NCBI GenBank assembly: GCA_964354495.1
Contig: CAYHAA010000039.1
Span: forward strand, 1 to 8,182
Length of the DNA: 8,182 nucleotides
Source: an uncultured archaeon
GTDB lineage: Archaea > Asgardarchaeota > Thorarchaeia > Thorarchaeales > Thorarchaeaceae
Reading direction: 5' to 3'
The stretch's first letter is position 1. The number at the start of each line of letters is the position of its first letter. The notes beneath the pieces were generated by a model, which did no database searches, had not been told where the DNA came from, and saw nothing but the letters and a program-made list of their open reading frames with translations. Position numbers and translations under genes: made by a program. Shown here one piece after another: positions 1 to 8,182 of this stretch.

Positions 1-936
1 CTGCAGATGTTTGTCGACCTAGAGTCTCTTCGACACTTCATGGCAGTCTATCTCGATAGAGGCACATGCGTCTTCTATCATCCCTTCACAGAGGAGAGGA
101 TTCAGCCGGACCTCATCAGTGGATTCATTGCAGCAATTACGAGTGTATATGGCGAGATCAAGGGGGATGGTGTCCGAGGCACGCTTGAAGAGATTCAGTA
201 CCACGGACTCAGACTGAATAGCTACAGCGGGGACAAGATCATTGGCATCCTCATTCTTGAGGGAGAGATGACTCCTCTCTTGAAGGACAGACTCCAGTTC
301 TTTGTCGAGCTGTTTGAGAATCAGTATGAGAGAGACCTTGAAGGCTGGTCAGGACTGATTGATTGTTTTGACCCTGAGTGGATCGTATCGACGTTGAATG
401 CAGCCTTCAACTACTCTTGGTTGCTCCCGCACAGATTCGGACCAACTCAGAAGGTATCAAAGACAAATGCCAGAATCCTGGACTACGTCGCAGCAGTACG
501 AGATAACAGATCGGAGTTCTACCTCAGGAAGCTCCTTTCTCCGCTCTCAGAAATGCTAAAGTTGTCGGAGGCACAGGTTCTCGACCGGCTTCTCACCCTT
601 CAGGACAAGGGTGCGATTGTACCAGTTGGCGTGCAGACGGTCCTTCAGCGCCAAGGGATGGGCCTATCGGACGGGCATGAAGGAGAAGAGGCGACATCAC
701 TGAAGCCGCCTCCAGAAAAAGAGATAGCCTGGGAGATTGAGGAAGAGGCTGAACCGGCCACTGTGAAAGAGCAGAAGGAGGAATTGGCACCTGCTGCGGC
801 AGAAACAGTGGAAGCGCCCGAACCGGAGCCCAAAGAGGAAACTGATTCCATGGAGGCTTTCGTTAGGGATGTGGAGTCACTCATGAGAAAAGAGAAGAAG
901 AAGGGCGAAGGCGACAAGAAGGATAAGGAAGAATAA
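1..936 (+). CDS. Longin-like domain + winged-helix + acidic tail protein (probably 5'-partial; Asgard-type)
   Basis: The frame is open from base 1 (CTG CAG ATG), so the true start may lie outside the window. Residues ~8-137 (numbered from ATG at 7) show longin-type motifs (QPDLISGFIAAI, LEEIQYHGLRL, FVELFENQY, WSGLIDCF). Residues ~152-207 resemble a winged helix (EAQVLDRLLTLQDKGAIVPV). An E/P/A-rich tail follows. Stop TAA at 934-936. Confidence 0.75.
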   Translation: MQMFVDLESLRHFMAVYLDRGTCVFYHPFTEERIQPDLISGFIAAITSVYGEIKGDGVRGTLEEIQYHGLRLNSYSGDKIIGILILEGEMTPLLKDRLQFFVELFENQYERDLEGWSGLIDCFDPEWIVSTLNAAFNYSWLLPHRFGPTQKVSKTNARILDYVAAVRDNRSEFYLRKLLSPLSEMLKLSEAQVLDRLLTLQDKGAIVPVGVQTVLQRQGMGLSDGHEGEEATSLKPPPEKEIAWEIEEEAEPATVKEQKEELAPAAAETVEAPEPEPKEETDSMEAFVRDVESLMRKEKKKGEGDKKDKEE

Positions 937-999: not shown

Positions 1000-1320
1000 A
1001 TGCCTTGGAACATTGACAACTACTACATCATTGATGGTCGCATACTCAGGGTTGAGATCTCAGTTCCACTCCTAGAGTTTCTCTACATAAGCATCAATGA
1101 CGTGAAGGAAGCATGGCTTGATATGTTGAAGCAGTTTGTTGCGGAACAGCCAGGTTTTGACATGTCTTGGGAGATGCAGCCAAAGCGGAATCAGGCAGTT
1201 GTTACAATTCAAATCGCCAAATCTGGAAAACTGCGTGCGTTCACAAAGGCAGAGAGAAAGGGAGCTCTGAAAGCTGTGGATGCCCTCTTTGATGATAAGA
1301 AGAGCACTACCTCGTTCTAG
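1000..1320 (+). CDS. Hypothetical small alpha/beta protein (106 aa; alternative start at 961 gives 119 aa)
   Basis: Fills the gap between ORF1 and the convergent LarA-like gene, with globular, protein-like composition. ATG at 1000 is preceded by GAAGGT (982-987) and an AT-rich TTATGTA at 959-965. No family recognised. Confidence 0.7.
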   Translation: MPWNIDNYYIIDGRILRVEISVPLLEFLYISINDVKEAWLDMLKQFVAEQPGFDMSWEMQPKRNQAVVTIQIAKSGKLRAFTKAERKGALKAVDALFDDKKSTTSF

Positions 1321-2572
1321 GTACAGGCAAGGTCCTGTTCCCTTGAGGAATCACTGCAACTCTTGGCGTAGATACGATTTGACTCCTTGCAAGCTCTAGC
1401 CCTTCCTGAGGATCTCTCACGGCCATACCGTGAAAACGTTCTGTGACTATTGATTCTCTTAGCCTGCTGCAGATGATGAGTCTTCTCGAGGCCAAGATAT
1501 TCCAGAAGAAGCGAGCCTTCTCCATGCCCGATTCATAGCCAGTTTCAGCTGTGATTTCAACCTCTGATGCAGACTTGCACTCTGAGACTCCCTTCAGGAA
1601 ACCAATGGGTCCAAGTCCATCGGCACACTCTGCAATGAGCAAGATGGCACCTCCATACTCAGTCGCCTCATGGGCAGCGCACAGACTGTCAACTGCAGCA
1701 TAGAGGGTGCTATCAAAGGGACCTCCGCCAGGGCTGACAATCGCGATGTCTGCTCTGTGCTGCATGGGAGTTTCCGTCAGAGCCCTTGCAACATTGACAC
1801 CTCGATTCCATGACTTATAGGGCTCGCCAGCAGTGATGGCTGCGATGTTGTTCTGCCGATCAGGTACTGCATTCAGAATGAAATCCAGATTCGCAATTCG
1901 TGATATCTCCTCCATATCCACACACGTTGCACTGTCTATCATGAAGGGACCTACTGGGTGTGTAGCCTGCAGTTTCGTGCTACGAGCAATGGTCTTGAGA
2001 CCGCATGCATGGGGCATTACAGACATTCGCCCCCCTGTTGAACCTATGAAGACATTACATCGTATGGTACCAAGGCCAATTCTGAAATCAGCCTCAACAA
2101 ATGCTCTGTTTACTGTAACAGGTGTAGAGTATGTTGCTGTATCACCCAAGTAACAGAGTGCTTCAGCCTCCTTTGCATCATGAAGAAGCAGATGATGGCC
2201 TCGGGCTGTCGGTTCCCCCAACATCAGATCAATATCACGAAGCTTAGCGTTGGTGCCTGCATCAGAGGAGAAGATGATGGCTACATTGCCAGGATCGGTC
2301 ATTGATGTTCCAAGAATACCTAGAAGAGTGTCGAGCAGTCTTCGATTCAACTCAATGTCCTGTTCACTGTTCACGACTACAGCAACAGTCTTCGCGTTCT
2401 TCATCATTTGCGAGAGTGACTCAGACTCAGGGGGGTCCTCAACAGCCCTATTGACCTCATGCATCAAGCCATGCTGCTCTATGATGGTTCTGGGGGTCAC
2501 TAATTCAGCTGCTAGTCTCTGAGGTATCTCAAGTGGCAGCGACCCTGCGCCATAGCGTAAGTCTATTCTCAC
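1307..2572 (-). CDS. LarA/DUF2088 (nickel-dependent lactate racemase family) homologue with degenerate active site
   Basis: Collinear with LarA over the full length: RIDLRYG N-terminus, VNRAFVEADFRIGLGTI, GSTGGRMSVMP, LDFILNAV, ADIAIVSPGGGPFD, GGAILLIAECADGLG, RVAVIPQG. I prefer GTG at 2572 (MRIDLRYG) because LarA proteins typically begin this way. The longest ORF starts at GTG 2608. Confidence 0.9.
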   Translation of the reverse strand: MRIDLRYGAGSLPLEIPQRLAAELVTPRTIIEQHGLMHEVNRAVEDPPESESLSQMMKNAKTVAVVVNSEQDIELNRRLLDTLLGILGTSMTDPGNVAIIFSSDAGTNAKLRDIDLMLGEPTARGHHLLLHDAKEAEALCYLGDTATYSTPVTVNRAFVEADFRIGLGTIRCNVFIGSTGGRMSVMPHACGLKTIARSTKLQATHPVGPFMIDSATCVDMEEISRIANLDFILNAVPDRQNNIAAITAGEPYKSWNRGVNVARALTETPMQHRADIAIVSPGGGPFDSTLYAAVDSLCAAHEATEYGGAILLIAECADGLGPIGFLKGVSECKSASEVEITAETGYESGMEKARFFWNILASRRLIICSRLRESIVTERFHGMAVRDPQEGLELARSQIVSTPRVAVIPQGNRTLPVPRTR

Positions 2573-2632
2573 TGACCGTGACCCAGAATCATGTTGCCGG
2601 TCGACCACTTAAAGTTAACAGGAAAAAAGGGA

Positions 2633-2647
2633 GATAATCTTCTTATC
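2633..2647. promoter_or_regulatory. Candidate operator: inverted repeat GATAA-N5-TTATC in the divergent intergenic region
   Basis: GATAA(2633-2637) TCTTC TTATC(2643-2647) sits between the divergent LarA-like and DedA genes. The arms are only 5 bp, so chance is possible. Confidence 0.3.
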
Positions 2648-2682
2648 GCACGAATGAAGACAGTGAGGGGGACAGAAAACCA

Positions 2683-3429
2683 ATGAGAAAGTCAGACATA
2701 CTGCTTCTAGCATCAGTGGCTGCACTCTTGGTCTATTTGCTGCTCTCCATTCTTGTCCCCGACCTAACGAGTCCAATTGTCATCATCTATGACTGGCTCC
2801 TTGATGTCTCATTGATGCTCGGCTATCTGGGCGACTTTCTCGTCTCGTTTCTCGGTAACGCCACAGTGCTCTTTCCATTTCCGTACATGGGCATCACCTT
2901 CATTCTCGGAGGGCTCGCCGATGAAGTCACAGATCAGTTTCTCTTCGACCCCTATCTCATAGGGCTCCTAGCAGGACTTGGTGCTGTGCTCGGCGAGATG
3001 ACAGGGTATCTCATCGGATACGGCGGAGGCCATCTCATAGACGCGAAACAGAGAACCGCCTTTGGCGAATATGTGAAGAGGCATCCAAGAGCAACACCGT
3101 TTGTCCTGTGGTTTCTTGCCGCCACTCCAATCCCAGACGATGTGCTCATCGTACCACTCGGAGCAGCGAGATATCCCTGGTGGAAGGTGATGATTCCCCA
3201 GTTCATTGGAAAGACTATGTTCATGACGGTTATTGCATGGTCTGGAAGATTCGGTCTTGGCCTCGTGGGCATGCTTATTGGGAGTACAGATCCCACGAAC
3301 ATTCTATCCAGAGTCATTGAGGTCGCAAGTGTGCTTCTGATTGTAATCGGAATATACGCGCTGGTTCGAATTGACTGGAGCACCCTGATTTCCAGCAGAG
3401 AAAACATTGGGGAGGCTCCAACCAAGTGA
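2683..3429 (+). CDS. DedA/VTT-domain (SNARE-associated, TVP38/TMEM64-like) membrane protein, paralogue A
   Basis: Hydrophobic 248-aa protein with VTT motifs: FLVSFLGNATVLFPFP, GLGAVLGEMTGYLIGYGG, FLAATPIPDD, LGAARYPWWK, FIGK. SD-like GTGAGGGGG at 2663-2671. Confidence 0.9.
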   Translation: MRKSDILLLASVAALLVYLLLSILVPDLTSPIVIIYDWLLDVSLMLGYLGDFLVSFLGNATVLFPFPYMGITFILGGLADEVTDQFLFDPYLIGLLAGLGAVLGEMTGYLIGYGGGHLIDAKQRTAFGEYVKRHPRATPFVLWFLAATPIPDDVLIVPLGAARYPWWKVMIPQFIGKTMFMTVIAWSGRFGLGLVGMLIGSTDPTNILSRVIEVASVLLIVIGIYALVRIDWSTLISSRENIGEAPTK

Positions 3430-4172
3430 AACGAGCTGATAAGGTGTTCATAGCACTGCTCGTATTGGTCTTGATCTATTGGATCCTCCTCATCACAAAT
3501 CCTGTCTCCGCAAGCCTGCTAGCAAGTCTGTTTGATTGGATTGCTGATGCCGCTATTGTCCTTGGATATCCGGGTGCATTCATTGCGTGCCTACTAGGAA
3601 GTGCCAGTGTGATTGTTGAAGTTCCCTTTGCGGGAGTACCATTCGTACTCGGAGGCTTAAGAAACGGAGTGTCGGGGCCGTTTGTTTTTGATCCGTGGAT
3701 TGTGGGTCTCCTCTGTGGGATTGGAGCCACAATCGGAGATATGGTAAGTTACGCATTGGGATATGCGGGGAGAAGACTCGTCGATGAAGAAAGTACGAGT
3801 GGCTTCAGCAAGTTCATCCAAGAGCACCCGAGAGCAACACCAGTCGCGGTGTTTGTTCTGGCAGCCACACCTGTTCCTCTTGACCCTGCAGTGGTGGCTC
3901 TAGGAGTGGCAAGATACGCTTGGTGGAAACTCTTCATACCCTGCGTGATTGGACAGATAGTATTCTTTACGGTGGTCTCTTGGAGCGGGAGATTCAGCTT
4001 GGACTGGATTCTGGGACTGCTGGGAGTTGGAGGTCCAGTCACACTAATCTCCGCGACAGTGGATGTGCTCGGAATCCTACTGTTGATTGTGACTGTGTTC
4101 TTGGTTGTACGCCTTGACTGGACTGCAATCATGGGGAACCGGAAAGAGAAAGAAACCTCCAACAGCGACTGA
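3426..4172 (+). CDS. DedA/VTT-domain membrane protein, paralogue B
   Basis: 248 aa and collinear with paralogue A (GIGATIGDMVSYALGYAG, HPRATP, LAATPVPLD, LGVARYAWWK, WSGRF, VRLDW). The GTG start overlaps A's stop (GTGA, 3426-3429). SD-like GGGGAGG at 3409-3415. Confidence 0.9.
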   Translation: MKRADKVFIALLVLVLIYWILLITNPVSASLLASLFDWIADAAIVLGYPGAFIACLLGSASVIVEVPFAGVPFVLGGLRNGVSGPFVFDPWIVGLLCGIGATIGDMVSYALGYAGRRLVDEESTSGFSKFIQEHPRATPVAVFVLAATPVPLDPAVVALGVARYAWWKLFIPCVIGQIVFFTVVSWSGRFSLDWILGLLGVGGPVTLISATVDVLGILLLIVTVFLVVRLDWTAIMGNRKEKETSNSD

Positions 4173-4173
4173 A

Positions 4174-5154
4174 CTAGTCATCAGTTGACTCTTTTGGTTG
4201 AAGTCCAGCGAAGAACTCACGTCCTGCTTTTGTGACAGAAACGATTCCGTCCCTCAACAGGTTGCCAATTGAAGTAAGGTTCACTCCAGTGGAACCAATC
4301 GGTGCCTTGAGCATGCCAATATCATTCATCTCCCCGAGAAGCTGGATGAACGCACCCAGTCTATGGAGCGCAAGAATGCCAACACATTTTGTGAATGCGC
4401 GCTTGATGCCTTCAAGGATTGCATCTTTGGGGTCCTCAAACTCAGCTAGTGCCTTTTCAATCTCCAGAAAGGTGCAGCACATAGTGATTGCGTTCTCATC
4501 AGGATTATCAAGGAAGTGACCCGGGGCCTCGAGGAGGAAGGGATCCTTGAAACGGTTGACAATCTTCAGTCGCACAGACTCGTCTGGAATGGACCACCAA
4601 GACTGCAGGTGCTGGTCAGAAAGGGGTCTCACCTCAAGACCTTTGTCACGAGATGACTCAGAAACTATTGCCGGCAGGAATGAATGCCATCCTGGAATCA
4701 TACGGAGGCCCATTTTGCCGCCTTGGGGGAGCTCAAAGTCGAGTCTCCTTGAGCAGTAGTGAACAAGATCATAGATTGTGTATTTCCGCCGTCTATCTAT
4801 GAAGACAAAAACGGGTTCATAATCGCCCTCATGGGCCGGAACAGCCTGATAGTCCCATACGTAGAGGTACTCAAGACAGACAAGGTCGGGAATGTCTGGT
4901 GTTTTCAGGACACGACCAAAGGCCCCGATGAACTGCGTCTCCTTCAGAGCTGCACGAGTACCTTCTGGGATGACTGCGCCAAGACTCTGAGCAAGTGCGC
5001 TGTCGCCATTCAACACGCCAGATGTCAGCGGAAGGTTCTTCTCCAAGAGATCTCTATCAAATGAAGCCATCAGTCCGCGGCTGTGTTCTTTGAAAGTCAT
5101 CTTATCTGGTTTCGGACTAATACGAAGCAGCTCGGAGTACTTTTTCTCCACCAT
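4174..5154 (-). CDS. Hypothetical protein with NPP1/Vps62-like HEGDYE motif and possible C-terminal winged-helix element
   Basis: 326-aa ORF with ATG at 5154 and SD-like GAGGA upstream. Motif order LEYLYVWDYQ - AHEGDYEPVFV - YDLVHY - PGWHSF resembles Vps62/NPP1-like domains. The CDS is secure; the family assignment is moderate. Confidence 0.8.
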   Translation of the reverse strand: MVEKKYSELLRISPKPDKMTFKEHSRGLMASFDRDLLEKNLPLTSGVLNGDSALAQSLGAVIPEGTRAALKETQFIGAFGRVLKTPDIPDLVCLEYLYVWDYQAVPAHEGDYEPVFVFIDRRRKYTIYDLVHYCSRRLDFELPQGGKMGLRMIPGWHSFLPAIVSESSRDKGLEVRPLSDQHLQSWWSIPDESVRLKIVNRFKDPFLLEAPGHFLDNPDENAITMCCTFLEIEKALAEFEDPKDAILEGIKRAFTKCVGILALHRLGAFIQLLGEMNDIGMLKAPIGSTGVNLTSIGNLLRDGIVSVTKAGREFFAGLQPKESTDD

Positions 5155-5330: not shown

Positions 5331-6293
5331 ATGCCAAGAGAGGGTATTCTTCGAACGCCTGATTCTCGATTTGAGAATCTTCCCGATTATGATTTTCAGG
5401 AGAATTACATGACTATCAACGGGCTTCGTATCCACTATGTAGATGAGGGCTCGAAAGTGGCACCTCCCATTCTCTTGATGCATGGAGAACCGTCATGGAG
5501 CTATCTTTACCGAAAGATGATTCCTCCCTTAGTGAAGGAGGGATTCCGCGTTATTGCCCCTGATTTGATGGGCTTTGGAAAGTCTGACAAACCTCTGCGC
5601 ATCAAGGACTATTCTCACACACGTCATGTAGATGTGATTCTCGAGTTTGTAAGAAAACTCAACCTTAGCGGTATCACCCTTTTCTGCCAAAATTGGGGCG
5701 GCCTTATCGGTCTACGAGTAGTTGGAGAAGACCCGAATAGATTCTCTAGGATTATAGCAGCCAATACCGGTCTTCCGAGTGCAAAAGGAATCAAATCCAT
5801 AATTGGGTATCCACTCTTCAAGCTACAAATAAGACGAATAGGAAAAGTGACGCAAGAGCAGTTCAAAGAAAATGTGAATCTCATGAGCTGGGTAGCATTT
5901 TCAAAAACAGTTCCAAGATTGCCAATCGGTGATATCATGCAGATGGCAACGGTGTCAAAGCTGTCGTCTGAAGTCATCAGAGCATATGAAGCTCCTTTTC
6001 CCGATGAGTCGTACAAAGCTGGTGCACGAATATTTCCATACCTAGTCCCATCTGAGTTGTCGAAGAACCGAAAGGTCTGGGATAATGTCCTGTCAAAGTG
6101 GAAGAAACCATTCCTTACAGCTTTCAGTGACCACGATCCAATTACCAAAGGGGGTGAGAAATACTTTCAGAAGATGATTCCTGGAGCAAAGGACCGAGAG
6201 CACATCATAATAAAAGGGGCAGGTCATTTTCTCCAAGAAGATAAGGGTGAGGAATTATCACAAATCATGTTGGAATTCATGCAACAGGACTAG
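5331..6293 (+). CDS. Haloalkane dehalogenase family alpha/beta hydrolase (HLD-I, DhlA/DhmA-like) with Asn at the nucleophile position
   Basis: LRTPDSRFENLPDY N-terminus, LLMHGEPSWSYLYRKMIP, APDLMGFGKSDKP, FCQNWGGLIG, ANTGLP, AYEAPFP, FSDHDPI, GAGHFLQEDKG. Strong SD AGGAGG at 5321-5326. Confidence 0.95.
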   Translation: MPREGILRTPDSRFENLPDYDFQENYMTINGLRIHYVDEGSKVAPPILLMHGEPSWSYLYRKMIPPLVKEGFRVIAPDLMGFGKSDKPLRIKDYSHTRHVDVILEFVRKLNLSGITLFCQNWGGLIGLRVVGEDPNRFSRIIAANTGLPSAKGIKSIIGYPLFKLQIRRIGKVTQEQFKENVNLMSWVAFSKTVPRLPIGDIMQMATVSKLSSEVIRAYEAPFPDESYKAGARIFPYLVPSELSKNRKVWDNVLSKWKKPFLTAFSDHDPITKGGEKYFQKMIPGAKDREHIIIKGAGHFLQEDKGEELSQIMLEFMQQD

Positions 6294-6489: not shown

Positions 6490-6879
6490 CTACACGGGTG
6501 TGAAGGCCAAGTATGTTGTTCCAGACTTTCCTTTCTCGTAGCCCAGCTTCACATTCGTGCCAATCTTTACCTCTCCGGGCTTGAGTGGATCATATCCCAG
6601 AAGACGTGCGCTCACGCGAGTACCTTCTGCGAGCTCTACTATGGCCACATAAAATGGAACTTCGTCACGGAACTGATCTGGAGCGATATGAATTACAGTG
6701 AAAGACACTATCTTTCCCTTTCCGCTCACATCAGCCCAAGTCATCTTGCTACTGCCACAGATATAGCATGAGCCTGATGGGGGAGCAATGACTGCCCCGC
6801 ACTCAGTGCATTTGTAGGCTTTGAAATGACCCGCTTGGATATTCTTGAGATATGCGTCTATGGATGGTTTCTCACTCAT
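6490..6879 (-). CDS. DUF35 family Zn-ribbon/OB-fold protein (thiolase partner)
   Basis: CTEC...CYIC zinc ribbon, then SGKGKIVSFTVIH and PFYVAIVELAEGTRVSA (OB fold). The ATG overlaps the thiolase stop (ATGA, 6876-6879). SD GAGGAGGG on the minus strand at 6887-6894. Confidence 0.95.
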   Translation of the reverse strand: MSEKPSIDAYLKNIQAGHFKAYKCTECGAVIAPPSGSCYICGSSKMTWADVSGKGKIVSFTVIHIAPDQFRDEVPFYVAIVELAEGTRVSARLLGYDPLKPGEVKIGTNVKLGYEKGKSGTTYLAFTPV

Positions 6880-8048
6880 ACGTCAGCCCTCCTCATAATA
6901 TTCACAACACACGTTGCCCCCGTACCTCCGAAGTTATGCTGTAGGGCAGTTTCATGATTGGTGAGTTGGTTGGGTCCAGCATCACCAATGAGTTCGCGGT
7001 AGATGACAACAGCCTGTTTGACTCCAGTCGCTCCAACCGGGTGACCAACACCCTTCAGACCGCCCATGGGATTGATGGGCTTGTCGCCATCGAGAGCAGT
7101 CACTCCATCGCGAACAGCTCTCGCGCCTTCACCAGGTTTGAAGAATCCAATATCCTCGCTTGCTATGATCTCAGCGATTGTGAAACAGTCATGGACCACT
7201 GCAAAGTCCATATCCTTTGGCTTGAGCCCGGCCATCTTGTATGCTTGTCTGCTGGCTTCTACAGATGCGCTGAAGGTTGTAAGGTCTGAGCGGGCGCACA
7301 GGTTCATAGATGCAGAGGCTTGTCCTGTACCAATGATCTTGACAGGCAGGTCTGTGTACTTCTTTGCTTTCTCATTAGATGTGAGTACAAGTGCCGCAGC
7401 GCCATCAGATATTGGCGAGCAGTCATAGAGCTTGAGAGGCCAAGCTATGTATCTTGGTGTCATTGCCTTCTCAAGAGTGATCTCCTTCTGGAACTGCGCT
7501 AGGGGATTGGTTGAGGCGTTCTTGTGGGCTTTTACAGCTACGCGCGCCATGTCTTCTTCGGTTGTCCCATACTTGTGCATGTGTGCAACTGCAGCAATGG
7601 CAAAGATACCGGGGAAGGTCAGCCCAATACTTGATTCAAATTGATCATCAGCCGCTGCAGCAAGCGCCTCCGTGGCCTTGTTGGTTGATACTGAGGTCAT
7701 CTTCTCGGCGCCAACGACAAGAACCGTGTCATAGAGTTTCGACTCGATTGCCATGATCCCAGCCCGAAGTGCTGTTGCACCTGATGCACAGGCAGCCTCA
7801 TGACGCGTTGCAGGCAGTCCTCTGAGACCAGCATAGTCGACAAGAAGTGGTGCTGTATGCCCCTGATGAATAAGCATCTCTGGGATGAAGGTCCCGATAA
7901 ATGCTGCTTGAATATCCTTCTTGGGAATACCAGCATTCACCGTTACTTTGTCCACCGCCTCAGAGAACATCTCTCTGAGTGTCACGCCTTCAAGTGCTCC
8001 AAACTTCGTATGAGCAGCACTAACAATATTCGTGTTTTTTAGGGGCAA
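6876..8048 (-). CDS. Thiolase (acetyl-CoA acyltransferase, SCP2/archaeal type), 390 aa
   Basis: HEAACASG (nucleophile Cys), LYDCSPISDGAAA, VHDCF, GGLKGVGHPVGATG, HNFGG. The true start is most likely TTG at 8048 (MPLKNTNIVSAAHTKFG) with SD GAGGTG upstream. The 35 extra codons of the 8153 ORF do not look like thiolase sequence. Confidence 0.95.
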   Translation of the reverse strand: MPLKNTNIVSAAHTKFGALEGVTLREMFSEAVDKVTVNAGIPKKDIQAAFIGTFIPEMLIHQGHTAPLLVDYAGLRGLPATRHEAACASGATALRAGIMAIESKLYDTVLVVGAEKMTSVSTNKATEALAAAADDQFESSIGLTFPGIFAIAAVAHMHKYGTTEEDMARVAVKAHKNASTNPLAQFQKEITLEKAMTPRYIAWPLKLYDCSPISDGAAALVLTSNEKAKKYTDLPVKIIGTGQASASMNLCARSDLTTFSASVEASRQAYKMAGLKPKDMDFAVVHDCFTIAEIIASEDIGFFKPGEGARAVRDGVTALDGDKPINPMGGLKGVGHPVGATGVKQAVVIYRELIGDAGPNQLTNHETALQHNFGGTGATCVVNIMRRADV

Positions 8049-8095
8049 GTGATGATTCCACCTCTGCAAAGATGAGTCGGACCACAAAGTACAGC

Positions 8096-8103
8096 TATAA
8101 AAA
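8096..8103 (-). promoter_or_regulatory. Candidate archaeal TATA box (TTTTTATA) for the thiolase-DUF35 operon
   Basis: Minus-strand TTTTTATA lies 48 nt upstream of TTG 8048, leaving room for a short leader carrying the SD. No clear purine-rich BRE. It could instead serve a divergent gene outside the window. Confidence 0.4.
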
Positions 8104-8182
8104 CTGTGAGAAACACTGCATTTTCCCAAGTACCACGCAAGTAGCAGCAGCATACTACTCTCCGAAGAGATAATAAGCCGTT

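What the first reader, a model, noticed from the sequence alone, without database searches (positions are those of the whole stretch)
1307..2572. Intact LarA-fold protein with every nickel-pincer active-site residue replaced: candidate pseudoenzyme or repurposed ligand-binding protein
Aligned by eye to Lactiplantibacillus plantarum LarA (recalled sequence), the scaffold is conserved but the functional positions are not. Numbering is from the 433-aa ORF. SDHTR becomes NSEQD (D72 to S81, R75 to D84). ATGFH becomes SSDAG (H108 to G118). ESHFFAGFSGGRKSVLPG becomes RCNVFIGSTGGRMSVMPH (H174 to N185; K184, the NPN attachment lysine, to M195, codon 2026-2024). The Ni ligand H200 becomes T211. YQAVK becomes YAAVD (Q295 to A304, K298 to D307). 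There is no frameshift or premature stop, and structural glycines and hydrophobic strands are kept, which suggests selection on the fold rather than decay. Two carboxylate-binding basic residues become Asp, hinting at a pocket for a cationic ligand or metal. New C184, H200 and C202 lie near the old site (inference). No larB/C/E gene is in the window. Possible roles: inactive subunit of a LarA heteromer, metabolite sensor, or NPN-independent chemistry.
Basis: partly seen in the sequence, partly recalled or inferred. Interest (0 to 1): 0.8.

Follow-up and report, generated by a model that had tools for sequence, protein, structure and literature searches.

The report
Cofactor-site-less lactate-racemase-fold protein in Thorarchaeia
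This intact archaeal gene keeps the fold of nickel-dependent lactate/malate racemases but has lost every residue that holds the nickel cofactor or does the chemistry. It descends in place from a normal malate-racemase-type gene and is still kept by selection, so it must do something else; similar "dead-site" relatives were noted in 2020, and its function is unknown.

Summary
Window 1307-2572 (minus strand) encodes an intact 421-aa LarA-fold protein: Pfam Lar_N + LarA_C, AF2 pLDDT 94.8, TM 0.90 to LarA 5HUQ. D72, R75, H108, H174, K184, H200, Q295 and K298 are all replaced.

- **Not recent decay.** The same losses are shared by a monophyletic clade (23-86% identity) found only in one family (f1) of Thorarchaeia among 151 Asgard genomes sampled. 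dN/dS is 0.16-0.23 in three close pairs, against 0.05-0.16 for canonical Asgard LarA homologues.
- **Origin.** In the sister family the same slot (DedA/VTT gene | LarA homologue | small ~100-aa gene) holds a fully canonical malate-racemase-type enzyme. The catalytic site therefore died in place.
- **Constraint.** The gene is the fastest-evolving one in its syntenic block. It has been deleted, replaced by a toxin-antitoxin pair, or truncated in several genera, so its role is dispensable.
- **Cofactor.** The genome has LarC and two canonical LarA paralogues, but no LarB or LarE was found.
- **Best reading.** An NPN-independent, non-racemase protein whose former carboxylate-binding residues turned acidic. 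Function is unknown.

Desguin et al. 2020 already reported LarA-homologue groups without these residues, and this scan found one before in Thaumarchaeota (e1-715020). This is a new variant, not a new kind.

The parts
1307..2572 (-). CDS of the LarA-fold protein without an NPN site (421 aa, GTG start at 2572, TAG stop)
2573..2608 (-). In-frame upstream extension of the 433-aa ORF; probably not translated
   Evidence: Databases and L099 use the GTG at 2572; relatives have stops here
2024..2038 (-). Codons T191-G-G-R-M195. The loop that carries the NPN-tethering Lys184 in LarA is here TGGRM; Met is in 113/120 relatives and Lys in none
2054..2056 (-). N185 codon, equivalent of catalytic H174 (clade: D 78, N 36 of 120)
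1976..1978 (-). T211 codon, equivalent of the Ni ligand H200 (clade: A/S/T, variable)
2255..2257 (-). G118 codon, equivalent of catalytic H108; lies in the least conserved loop of the clade
2357..2368 (-). S81-E-Q-D84 codons, equivalents of D72..R75 (NPN ribose/phosphate and substrate carboxylate binding); variable loop, register uncertain by a few residues
1688..1699 (-). A304-A-V-D307 codons, equivalents of Q295..K298 (substrate carboxylate binding); D307 is the clade's conserved charge reversal
1517..1528 (-). G361-M-E-K364 codons, the clade-specific conserved lid motif (canonical MAR-type relatives read GGHK here)
2573..2682 (.). 110-bp divergent intergenic region shared with the DedA/VTT genes
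2683..4172 (+). Two tandem DedA/VTT-domain membrane protein genes, the conserved divergent neighbour (one or two copies in relatives)
1000..1320 (+). Conserved ~100-aa protein of unknown family, convergent with the LarA-like gene and overlapping its 3' end by 14 bp. Adjacent in all 23 relatives' loci checked and in the sister family

Best explanation
**What it is.** The gene encodes an intact LarA-fold protein that cannot be a nickel-pincer (NPN) racemase. It has none of the residues that tether NPN (K184), ligate Ni (H200), bind the NPN ribose and phosphate (D72, R75), perform acid/base catalysis (H108, H174) or hold the substrate carboxylate (R75, Q295, K298).

**Origin.** It is the positional descendant of a malate-racemase-type LarA homologue. 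That ancestor sat between a DedA/VTT membrane-protein gene and a small conserved gene. The catalytic site was lost once, in the ancestor of one Thorarchaeia family.

**Selection.** Since then the protein has been kept under moderate purifying selection. It evolves faster than all its neighbours and has been discarded in several genera. It therefore serves a dispensable, NPN-independent role.

**Most likely mechanism (inferred, not shown).** It acts as a non-catalytic binding protein that uses the remodelled inter-domain cleft. The side chains that converge on the substrate carboxylate in LarA are now acidic or neutral: D84, N185, D307 and E363 in this protein, mostly D/D/D/E across the clade. 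The cleft would therefore favour a cation (a divalent metal or an amine) over a carboxylate. The strongest constraint lies in the C-terminal domain and in the TGG(R) and GMEK loops, not in the old NPN-binding loops.
For: **Shown**

- Homology and fold.
- All eight functional positions are replaced, while canonical homologues in the same alignment keep them.
- The clade is one side of a branch with 99-100 SH-like support.
- Among 151 Asgard genomes the residue-less form was found only in family f1. All 16 hits fetched from outside that family (15 from other Asgard families plus the sister family f2) read DRHHKHQK.
- In G015 (sister family) the same VTT | LarAH | small-gene slot holds a canonical enzyme: Lar_N 215 bits, Mar2 5e-90.
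- An AU test does not reject grouping the clade with that gene (p = 0.32).
- dN/dS is 0.19-0.23, 0.18-0.20 and 0.16-0.18 in three close pairs, against 0.05-0.16 in four canonical Asgard pairs.
- It is the fastest-evolving gene of the block. In L015, for example, thiolase is 83% identical, the small protein 65%, the unknown 326-aa protein 53%, VTT 47% and the LarA-like protein 30%.
- It has been lost cleanly in G005, G006 and G002, replaced by a HEPN-MNT pair in G009, and carries a TAA stop in the GMEK motif in G025.
- The genome lacks LarB and LarE although it is 97.7% complete. Relatives carry these genes on separate contigs.

**Inferred**

- The cation-binding cleft. In 9EIA the lactate carboxylate is held by Arg73, Gln295, Lys298, His107 and His173 (bioRxiv 10.1101/2024.11.28.625916). 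The equivalents in the clade are D/H, D, D, variable, and D/N.
- Conservation is low in the ex-NPN loops and high in TGG, DxTLYDxxD, AEC, GMEK and IICSRLR.
Against: - No ligand, metal or partner has been shown.
- The acidic pattern is incomplete in this very protein (N185 and A304 instead of D).
- The ex-active-site positions are only averagely conserved in the clade. That weakens the idea of one precise shared binding site.
- I had no model coordinates in the Python box, so I could not map conservation or electrostatics in 3D.
- Synteny within one family may be inherited order rather than functional linkage.
- Repeated loss shows the role is not essential and leaves slow decay possible in some lineages.
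Confidence: 0.6

Rival explanations
1. Neo-enzyme. The remodelled cleft catalyses a new, NPN-independent reaction. An example would be a divalent-metal-dependent reaction using the converging Asp/Glu residues, with R183, R194, R209 and K212 binding a phosphorylated or anionic group.
For: - Purifying selection.
- Conserved charged residues around the old site in most of the clade: R183, R194, R209, N210, K212, D299, D307, E363, K364.
- Desguin et al. suggested that residue-less groups catalyse something without NPN (PMC7583248).
Against: - The candidate catalytic positions vary within the clade: 185 is D/N/S/H/T, 304 is D/E/N/A and 195 is M/I/L/T.
- This protein has N185 and A304.
- The overall rate is high and losses are frequent, which is unusual for a core enzyme.
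Confidence: 0.2
2. Slowly decaying relic. After the catalytic site died the gene has no function and is on its way out; intact copies are survivors.
For: - It is the fastest-evolving gene of the block.
- It has been deleted, replaced or truncated in several genera.
- dN/dS is about twice that of canonical relatives.
Against: - The ORF is intact in most f1 genomes, across divergence down to about 25% identity.
- dN/dS is 0.16-0.23 in three independent recent pairs.
- Invariant clade-specific motifs exist.
- A functionless 1.3-kb ORF would not stay open over family-level divergence.
Confidence: 0.1
3. Inactive subunit or regulator of a canonical LarA homologue (a heteromer with one of the two paralogues at C4:185875-187170 or C1:675871-677310).
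For: - Canonical paralogues exist in the genome.
- One LarA subfamily forms octamers (PMC12611868).
Against: - The paralogues are distant (about 26% identity or less over the best match) and unlinked.
- The clade gene persists in genomes without LarB or LarE, where canonical LarA homologues would have no cofactor.
- LarA from Isosphaera is handled as a monomer.
- No test of binding was run.
Confidence: 0.05
4. Still an NPN enzyme that binds the cofactor non-covalently with shifted residues.
For: - LarA of T. thermosaccharolyticum binds NPN non-covalently (PMC11796402).
- One alignment pairs E86/R89 with D72/R75.
- K212 is conserved next to the H200 position.
Against: - That non-covalent enzyme still aligns Lys and His at the K184 and H200 positions (2YJG row).
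- Here the Ni ligand, both catalytic His residues, the tether Lys and the ribose/phosphate binders are all gone, and their loops are the least conserved parts.
- LarB and LarE were not found in this genome.
Confidence: 0.03

Closest known systems
Malate racemase Mar2 and MAR-type LarA homologues (PDB 6D6Z/7S91; Desguin et al. 2020, PMC7583248)
   Same: - Best sequence match in the PDB (2.6e-39), same two-domain fold, and shared AEC..G and GG..D..LY motifs.
- The positional orthologue in the sister family is of this type (Mar2 5e-90).
   Different: - All NPN-binding, Ni-binding, catalytic and carboxylate-binding residues are replaced.
- The lid motif is GMEK instead of GGHK.
- The Lar_N score drops from 215 to 91 bits.
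Lactate racemase LarA of Lactiplantibacillus plantarum (PDB 5HUQ)
   Same: Fold: TM 0.90, rmsd 2.8 A over 432 columns. Also Pfam Lar_N + LarA_C.
   Different: 22% identity. D72, R75, H108, H174, K184, H200, Q295 and K298 are all absent.
LarA-homologue Groups 12, 13 and 16 of Desguin et al. [quoted passage not shown]
   Same: [quoted passage not shown]
- Group 12 (Nitrosopumilus) also has H174->D and H200->A.
   Different: - Different taxa: Thaumarchaeota, Planctomycetes and Frankia.
- Different signatures: Group 12 keeps D72 and has K184->T, Y294->G and K298->S.
- Different gene contexts.
- The Thorarchaeia clade was not in that data set.
- I did not place those groups in my tree.
Single-histidine LarA subfamily (PDB 9Q3J/9Q3K; PMC12611868)
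   Same: H174 is replaced by Asn, as in this protein.
   Different: Those proteins keep K184, H200, D72 and H108 and still load NPN. They are only 14-15% identical to this protein.
Second residue-less clade nested in canonical Bathyarchaeia LarA homologues (L092, P0158, P0228 and others)
   Same: Independent loss of K184, H108, Q295 and K298.
   Different: It keeps H174, branches inside a canonical group, and is unrelated in position on the tree.

Membership tests
LarA superfamily (Pfam Lar_N PF09861 + LarA_C PF21113; COG3875) | Significant match to both domain models, above the curated cut-offs | tested here: met
   Lar_N 90.8 bits (cut-off 23.3); LarA_C 58 bits (cut-off 25)
LarA superfamily (Pfam Lar_N PF09861 + LarA_C PF21113; COG3875) | Two-domain LarA fold | tested here: met
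   AF2 pLDDT 94.8; TM 0.88-0.90 to 2YJG and 5HUQ
NPN-dependent 2-hydroxyacid racemases/epimerases (functional LarA family) | Lys184 that tethers NPN | tested here: not met
   M195; Met in 113/120 clade members, Lys in none
NPN-dependent 2-hydroxyacid racemases/epimerases (functional LarA family) | His200, the Ni ligand | tested here: not met
   T211; A/S/T and variable in the clade
NPN-dependent 2-hydroxyacid racemases/epimerases (functional LarA family) | Catalytic His108 and His174 | tested here: not met
   G118 and N185
NPN-dependent 2-hydroxyacid racemases/epimerases (functional LarA family) | Asp72 (NPN ribose) and Arg75 (NPN phosphate and substrate carboxylate) | tested here: not met
   S81 and D84 in the 100-sequence alignment. 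The loop register is uncertain, but no conserved D..R pair exists in any register
NPN-dependent 2-hydroxyacid racemases/epimerases (functional LarA family) | Gln295 and Lys298 binding the substrate carboxylate | tested here: not met
   A304 and D307; the clade is mostly D and D
NPN-dependent 2-hydroxyacid racemases/epimerases (functional LarA family) | NPN biosynthesis genes larB, larC and larE in the genome | tested here: not met
   LarC is present at C1:210183-211472. No LarB/AIRC was found and no LarE above cut-off. The genome is 97.7% complete. Same-genus relatives mostly have both, on separate contigs
NPN-dependent 2-hydroxyacid racemases/epimerases (functional LarA family) | Ni/NPN content and racemase activity | not testable with these tools
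   Needs purified protein
MAR-type LarA homologues (by descent) | Orthology to a canonical MAR-type gene | tested here: inconclusive
   - Same VTT | LarAH | small-gene slot in G015, where the gene is canonical.
- The free tree does not place them as sisters because of a long stem branch.
- The AU test does not reject that grouping (p = 0.32)
Residue-less LarA-homologue groups of Desguin 2020 (Groups 12/13/16) | Catalytic and NPN-binding residues not conserved | tested here: met
   paper text
Residue-less LarA-homologue groups of Desguin 2020 (Groups 12/13/16) | Sequence membership in one of those three groups | not tested
   Their sequences were not in my alignments. Signatures and taxa differ, so membership is unlikely

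The most novel reading that the evidence does not exclude
In one Thorarchaeia family a malate-racemase-type nickel enzyme was converted in place into a cation- or metal-binding accessory protein. It would work with its ancient neighbours, the DedA/VTT membrane protein(s) and the conserved ~100-aa protein. That would be a LarA-fold pseudoenzyme recruited to a membrane transport or lipid-handling module in Asgard archaea.
Probability: 0.1. Interest if true: 0.7.

Novelty: new variant of a known kind. Interest (0 to 1): 0.45.

Why it matters
- **Annotation.** Databases name this protein 'nickel-dependent lactate racemase'. The evidence here says that name is wrong for the residue-less clade, which was found in most sampled genomes of one Thorarchaeia family. 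Metabolic reconstructions of Asgard archaea that count it as a racemase overstate NPN-dependent chemistry.
- **Evolution.** It is a clean, datable case of an enzyme losing its cofactor site in place. A canonical orthologue sits in the same slot in the sister family. The dead copy was then retained for a long time, evolved faster and was repeatedly lost. This gives a natural pair (G015 gene versus this gene) for asking what a LarA fold can do without NPN.
- **Field.** It adds a large, well-sampled group to the residue-less LarA homologues flagged but never studied since 2020.

Tried and rejected
- **Complex prediction.** LarA-like protein plus the conserved ~100-aa neighbour: 'no answer', score 0.19 against a mark of 0.32. 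This is not evidence either way.
- **Small neighbour.** The AF2 model has pLDDT 67 with a beta-beta-alpha-beta-beta-alpha order. Foldseek against the PDB found nothing at E <= 0.001. The protein atlas gave no usable hit for the small protein or for the 326-aa unknown.
- **Expression.** No RNA holder was listed among public runs.
- **Loci search.** The search for related loci with the 73-sequence clade alignment failed for lack of a conserved stretch. It worked with a 36-sequence alignment.
- **DNA for close relatives.** DNA for the 85-86% identical relatives P0003 and P0005 could not be fetched. L099 (P0004) was used instead.
- **3D mapping.** Model coordinates are not exposed to the Python box. 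Conservation and electrostatics could not be mapped in 3D, so positions were interpreted through equivalence with published LarA structures.
- **C184/H200/C202 as a new metal site.** Rejected, because these residues are not conserved.
- **LarB absence as an assembly gap.** LarB and LarE are both missing and are unlinked in relatives, so a gap is unlikely. It cannot be excluded.
- **Literature.** A search for 'LarA' plus 'pseudoenzyme' found nothing relevant.
Full report
**1. The object**

The window is a complete 8,182-bp contig (C39) of a 3.3-Mb, 97.7%-complete genome. By the names of its homologues it is a Thorarchaeia (Asgard) archaeon.

The minus-strand ORF 1307..2608 is open for 433 aa. 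The true start is almost certainly the GTG at 2572, giving 421 aa:
- the database copy of this protein and most relatives are 421 aa long;
- the 86%-identical relative L099 begins with GTG at the same codon;
- several same-genus genomes have a stop codon in the 12-codon upstream extension.

The finding's coordinates are therefore the gene. Its residue numbers follow the 433-aa ORF, and I keep that numbering.

**2. Checking the observation**

Family and fold:
- Pfam finds Lar_N (9.2e-26) and LarA_C (1.4e-15).
- The best solved relatives are malate racemase Mar2 (2.6e-39), T. thermosaccharolyticum LarA (8.7e-33) and L. plantarum LarA (about 1e-26).
- An AlphaFold2 model built on 100 homologues has mean pLDDT 94.8.
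- It superposes on 5HUQ_A with TM 0.90 and on 2YJG_A with TM 0.88.

Residue equivalences:
- The 100-sequence alignment contains about 28 canonical homologues. Nearly all of them read D, R, H, H, K, H, Q, K at the columns of D72, R75, H108, H174, K184, H200, Q295 and K298.
- At those columns the window protein reads S81, D84, G118, N185, M195, T211, A304 and D307.
- The HMMER pairwise alignments agree for the H174, K184, H200, Q295 and K298 segments.

The only soft spot is loop 80-89. One pairwise alignment shifts it by one residue, and a 344-sequence alignment pairs E86/R89 with D72/R75. Those positions are among the least conserved in the clade, so no register yields a conserved Asp..Arg pair.

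**3. Fixed in a clade, not recent decay**

- 120 homologues at 43-100% identity all lack the residues. Position 195 is Met in 113 and never Lys. Position 307 is Asp in 113. Position 185 is Asp or Asn in 114.
- An exhaustive HMMER search adds representatives down to about 25% identity with the same losses.
- On trees of 157 and 62 sequences the residue-less sequences that include the window form one side of a branch with 99-100 support.
- Sampling 151 Asgard genomes, matches at E <= 1e-35 occur in 22 of 32 genomes of the window's family (f1).
- All 16 hits I fetched from outside that family (15 from other Asgard families and one from the sister family f2) are fully canonical (DRHHKHQK).

Selection:
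- dN/dS is 0.19-0.23 (window vs L099), 0.18-0.20 (L010 vs L018) and 0.16-0.18 (L009 vs L019).
- Four canonical Asgard pairs at usable dS give 0.05-0.16.
- The gene is therefore under purifying selection that is roughly twofold relaxed.

**4. Origin in place**

The neighbourhood is conserved even where the LarA-like protein is only 27-33% identical. Its order is:
- thiolase, DUF35/OB protein and an unknown ~325-aa protein;
- one or two DedA/VTT genes, divergent from the LarA-like gene;
- the LarA-like gene;
- a conserved ~100-aa gene, convergent with it;
- a giant 1,300-1,900-aa protein.

In G015, the only sampled genome of the sister family, the core trio (VTT | LarA homologue | small gene) is present. 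There the LarA homologue is canonical: Lar_N 215 bits, Mar2 5e-90, all eight residues intact.

The free tree does not make the two sisters, because the residue-less clade sits on a long stem. The AU test does not reject holding them together (p = 0.32).

The simplest reading is a single loss of the NPN site in the ancestor of family f1, at the original locus.

**5. How constrained is it now?**

Within the block the LarA-like gene is always the most diverged. Examples are L015 (thiolase 83%, small protein 65%, unknown-326 53%, VTT 47%, LarA-like 30%) and L016 (thiolase 78%, LarA-like 27%).

Weighted conservation in the clade:
- The loops that held D72/R75 (80-86) and H108 (114-121), and position 211, fall in the lowest deciles.
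- The most conserved stretches are T191-G-G(-R), G294-G..D299.T.LY(D)..D307, A326-E-C, G361-M-E-K and I378-I-C-S-R-L-R.
- Many of the clade-specific conserved residues lie in the C-terminal domain.

The gene is dispensable:
- In G005, G006 and G002 (95-97% complete) the small gene and the VTT gene are adjacent with only roughly 50-300 bp between them.
- In G009 the slot holds a nucleotidyltransferase/HEPN pair instead.
- In G025 the copy has a TAA stop inside the GMEK motif.

**6. Cofactor supply**

- The genome has LarC and two canonical LarA paralogues, at C4:185875-187170 and C1:675871-677310.
- It has no LarB/AIRC and no LarE above cut-off.
- Across the class LarB is found in 48 of 61 genomes. 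LarE was matched in 10 of 12 same-genus relatives. The two genes lie on different contigs there, so a joint assembly gap is unlikely.
- Genus g9 shows no LarB in 4 genomes, yet three of them carry the residue-less gene.

This fits NPN independence.

**7. Mechanism**

Shown: the protein cannot bind or use NPN in the known way, and it is nevertheless maintained.

Inferred:
- In the LarA(Ip)-D-lactate structure the carboxylate is held by Arg73, Gln295, Lys298, His107 and His173.
- The equivalents in the clade are D or H, D (about 67%), D (about 80%), variable, and D or N. The lid His of MAR-type enzymes is Glu363.
- A point once surrounded by positive groups is now surrounded by carboxylates. This suggests a cation (a metal or an amine) rather than an anion.
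- In this protein the set is D84, N185, A304, D307 and E363.

These positions are only averagely conserved, and I could not inspect the model in 3D. I hold this part at about 0.3. The general statement (NPN-independent, non-racemase, selected, dispensable) I hold at about 0.8.

**8. Comparison with what is known**

- Desguin et al. [quoted passage not shown]
- Those groups come from Nitrosopumilus, planctomycetes and Frankia, with other signatures and contexts.
- The 2024 JBC survey reports the highest larA-homologue prevalence in Asgardarchaeota (87.5%), but my term search found no mention of residue-less members there.
- My tree also shows a second, independent residue-less clade nested among canonical Bathyarchaeia sequences.
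- This scan has already described the Thaumarchaeota Group 12 case on other DNA (e1-715020).

The phenomenon is therefore known but unexplained. This Thorarchaeia clade is a new, well-sampled instance with an unusually clear origin.

**9. Verdict**

Novelty is moderate (a new variant of a known kind) and the function is unknown.

Noticed in passing
G000 genome: C1:210183-211472 (LarC); C4:185875-187170 and C1:675871-677310 (canonical LarA homologues): The genome keeps LarC and two LarA homologues with intact NPN residues, but no LarB or LarE was found at 97.7% completeness. Most same-genus relatives have both, on separate contigs. G040 and G041 lack both as well. NPN synthesis may have been lost in part of the genus, leaving orphan LarA homologues.
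   Followed up: partly
window 5331-6293 (+): The alpha/beta-hydrolase gene (Abhydrolase_1, 1.4e-25) is absent from this position in all seven syntenic relatives' loci compared. It lies in a lower-GC stretch (0.44-0.45 against about 0.50). It looks like a recent insertion into the conserved block.
   Followed up: partly
window 1-936 (+): This ORF is the C-terminal end of a giant 1,300-1,900-aa protein with no Pfam family. It is conserved next to the small gene in relatives (46-76% identity over this part). The contig ends inside it.
   Followed up: partly
window 1000-1320 (+) and L009-L031: This ~100-aa protein starts MPW(D/N)IENY. It is 53-77% identical across the family and about 32% identical in the sister family. 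It is always convergent with the LarA-like slot and is kept even where the LarA-like gene is deleted. It has no Pfam, atlas or PDB fold match. The ORF as listed (961-1320) probably starts at 1000.
   Followed up: partly
window 4174-5154 (-): This 326-aa protein has no Pfam family. It is conserved (52-77% identity) between the DUF35/OB gene and the VTT gene in most relatives, but is missing in L016.
   Followed up: no
L125 (G009:C1:1290494-1293796), 535-1339: In G009 the LarA-like slot between the VTT gene and the small gene is occupied by a minimal nucleotidyltransferase plus a HEPN/DUF86-like pair. I read this by eye from the ORF translations as a toxin-antitoxin-type module.
   Followed up: partly
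L118 = G025:C45:28907-30160 (same contig as L031): The residue-less LarA copy carries a TAA stop at the Glu of the conserved GMEK motif (codon 353 of the fetched stretch). It is a probable pseudogene, or a sequencing error.
   Followed up: partly
L092, P0158, P0160, P0197, P0209, P0221, P0228, P0235, P0238, P0260: A second clade of LarA homologues has lost K184, H108, Q295 and K298 but keeps H174. It is nested with 97-100 support inside canonical Bathyarchaeia sequences, so this is an independent loss of the NPN site.
   Followed up: partly
window 2683-4172 (+): The DedA/VTT gene is duplicated in tandem here and in the closest relatives (L010, and the contigs of P0003 and P0005). It is single in more distant ones. 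The second copy is the more diverged (37-43% against 45-65% identity to the single-copy orthologues).
   Followed up: partly
window 6876-8153 (-): The thiolase ORF as listed (425 aa) has an N-terminal extension. Orthologues are 390 aa and 78-90% identical, so the real start is probably near 8045. The thiolase and DUF35/OB genes overlap by 4 bp, as in the archaeal thiolase/DUF35 pairs.
   Followed up: no
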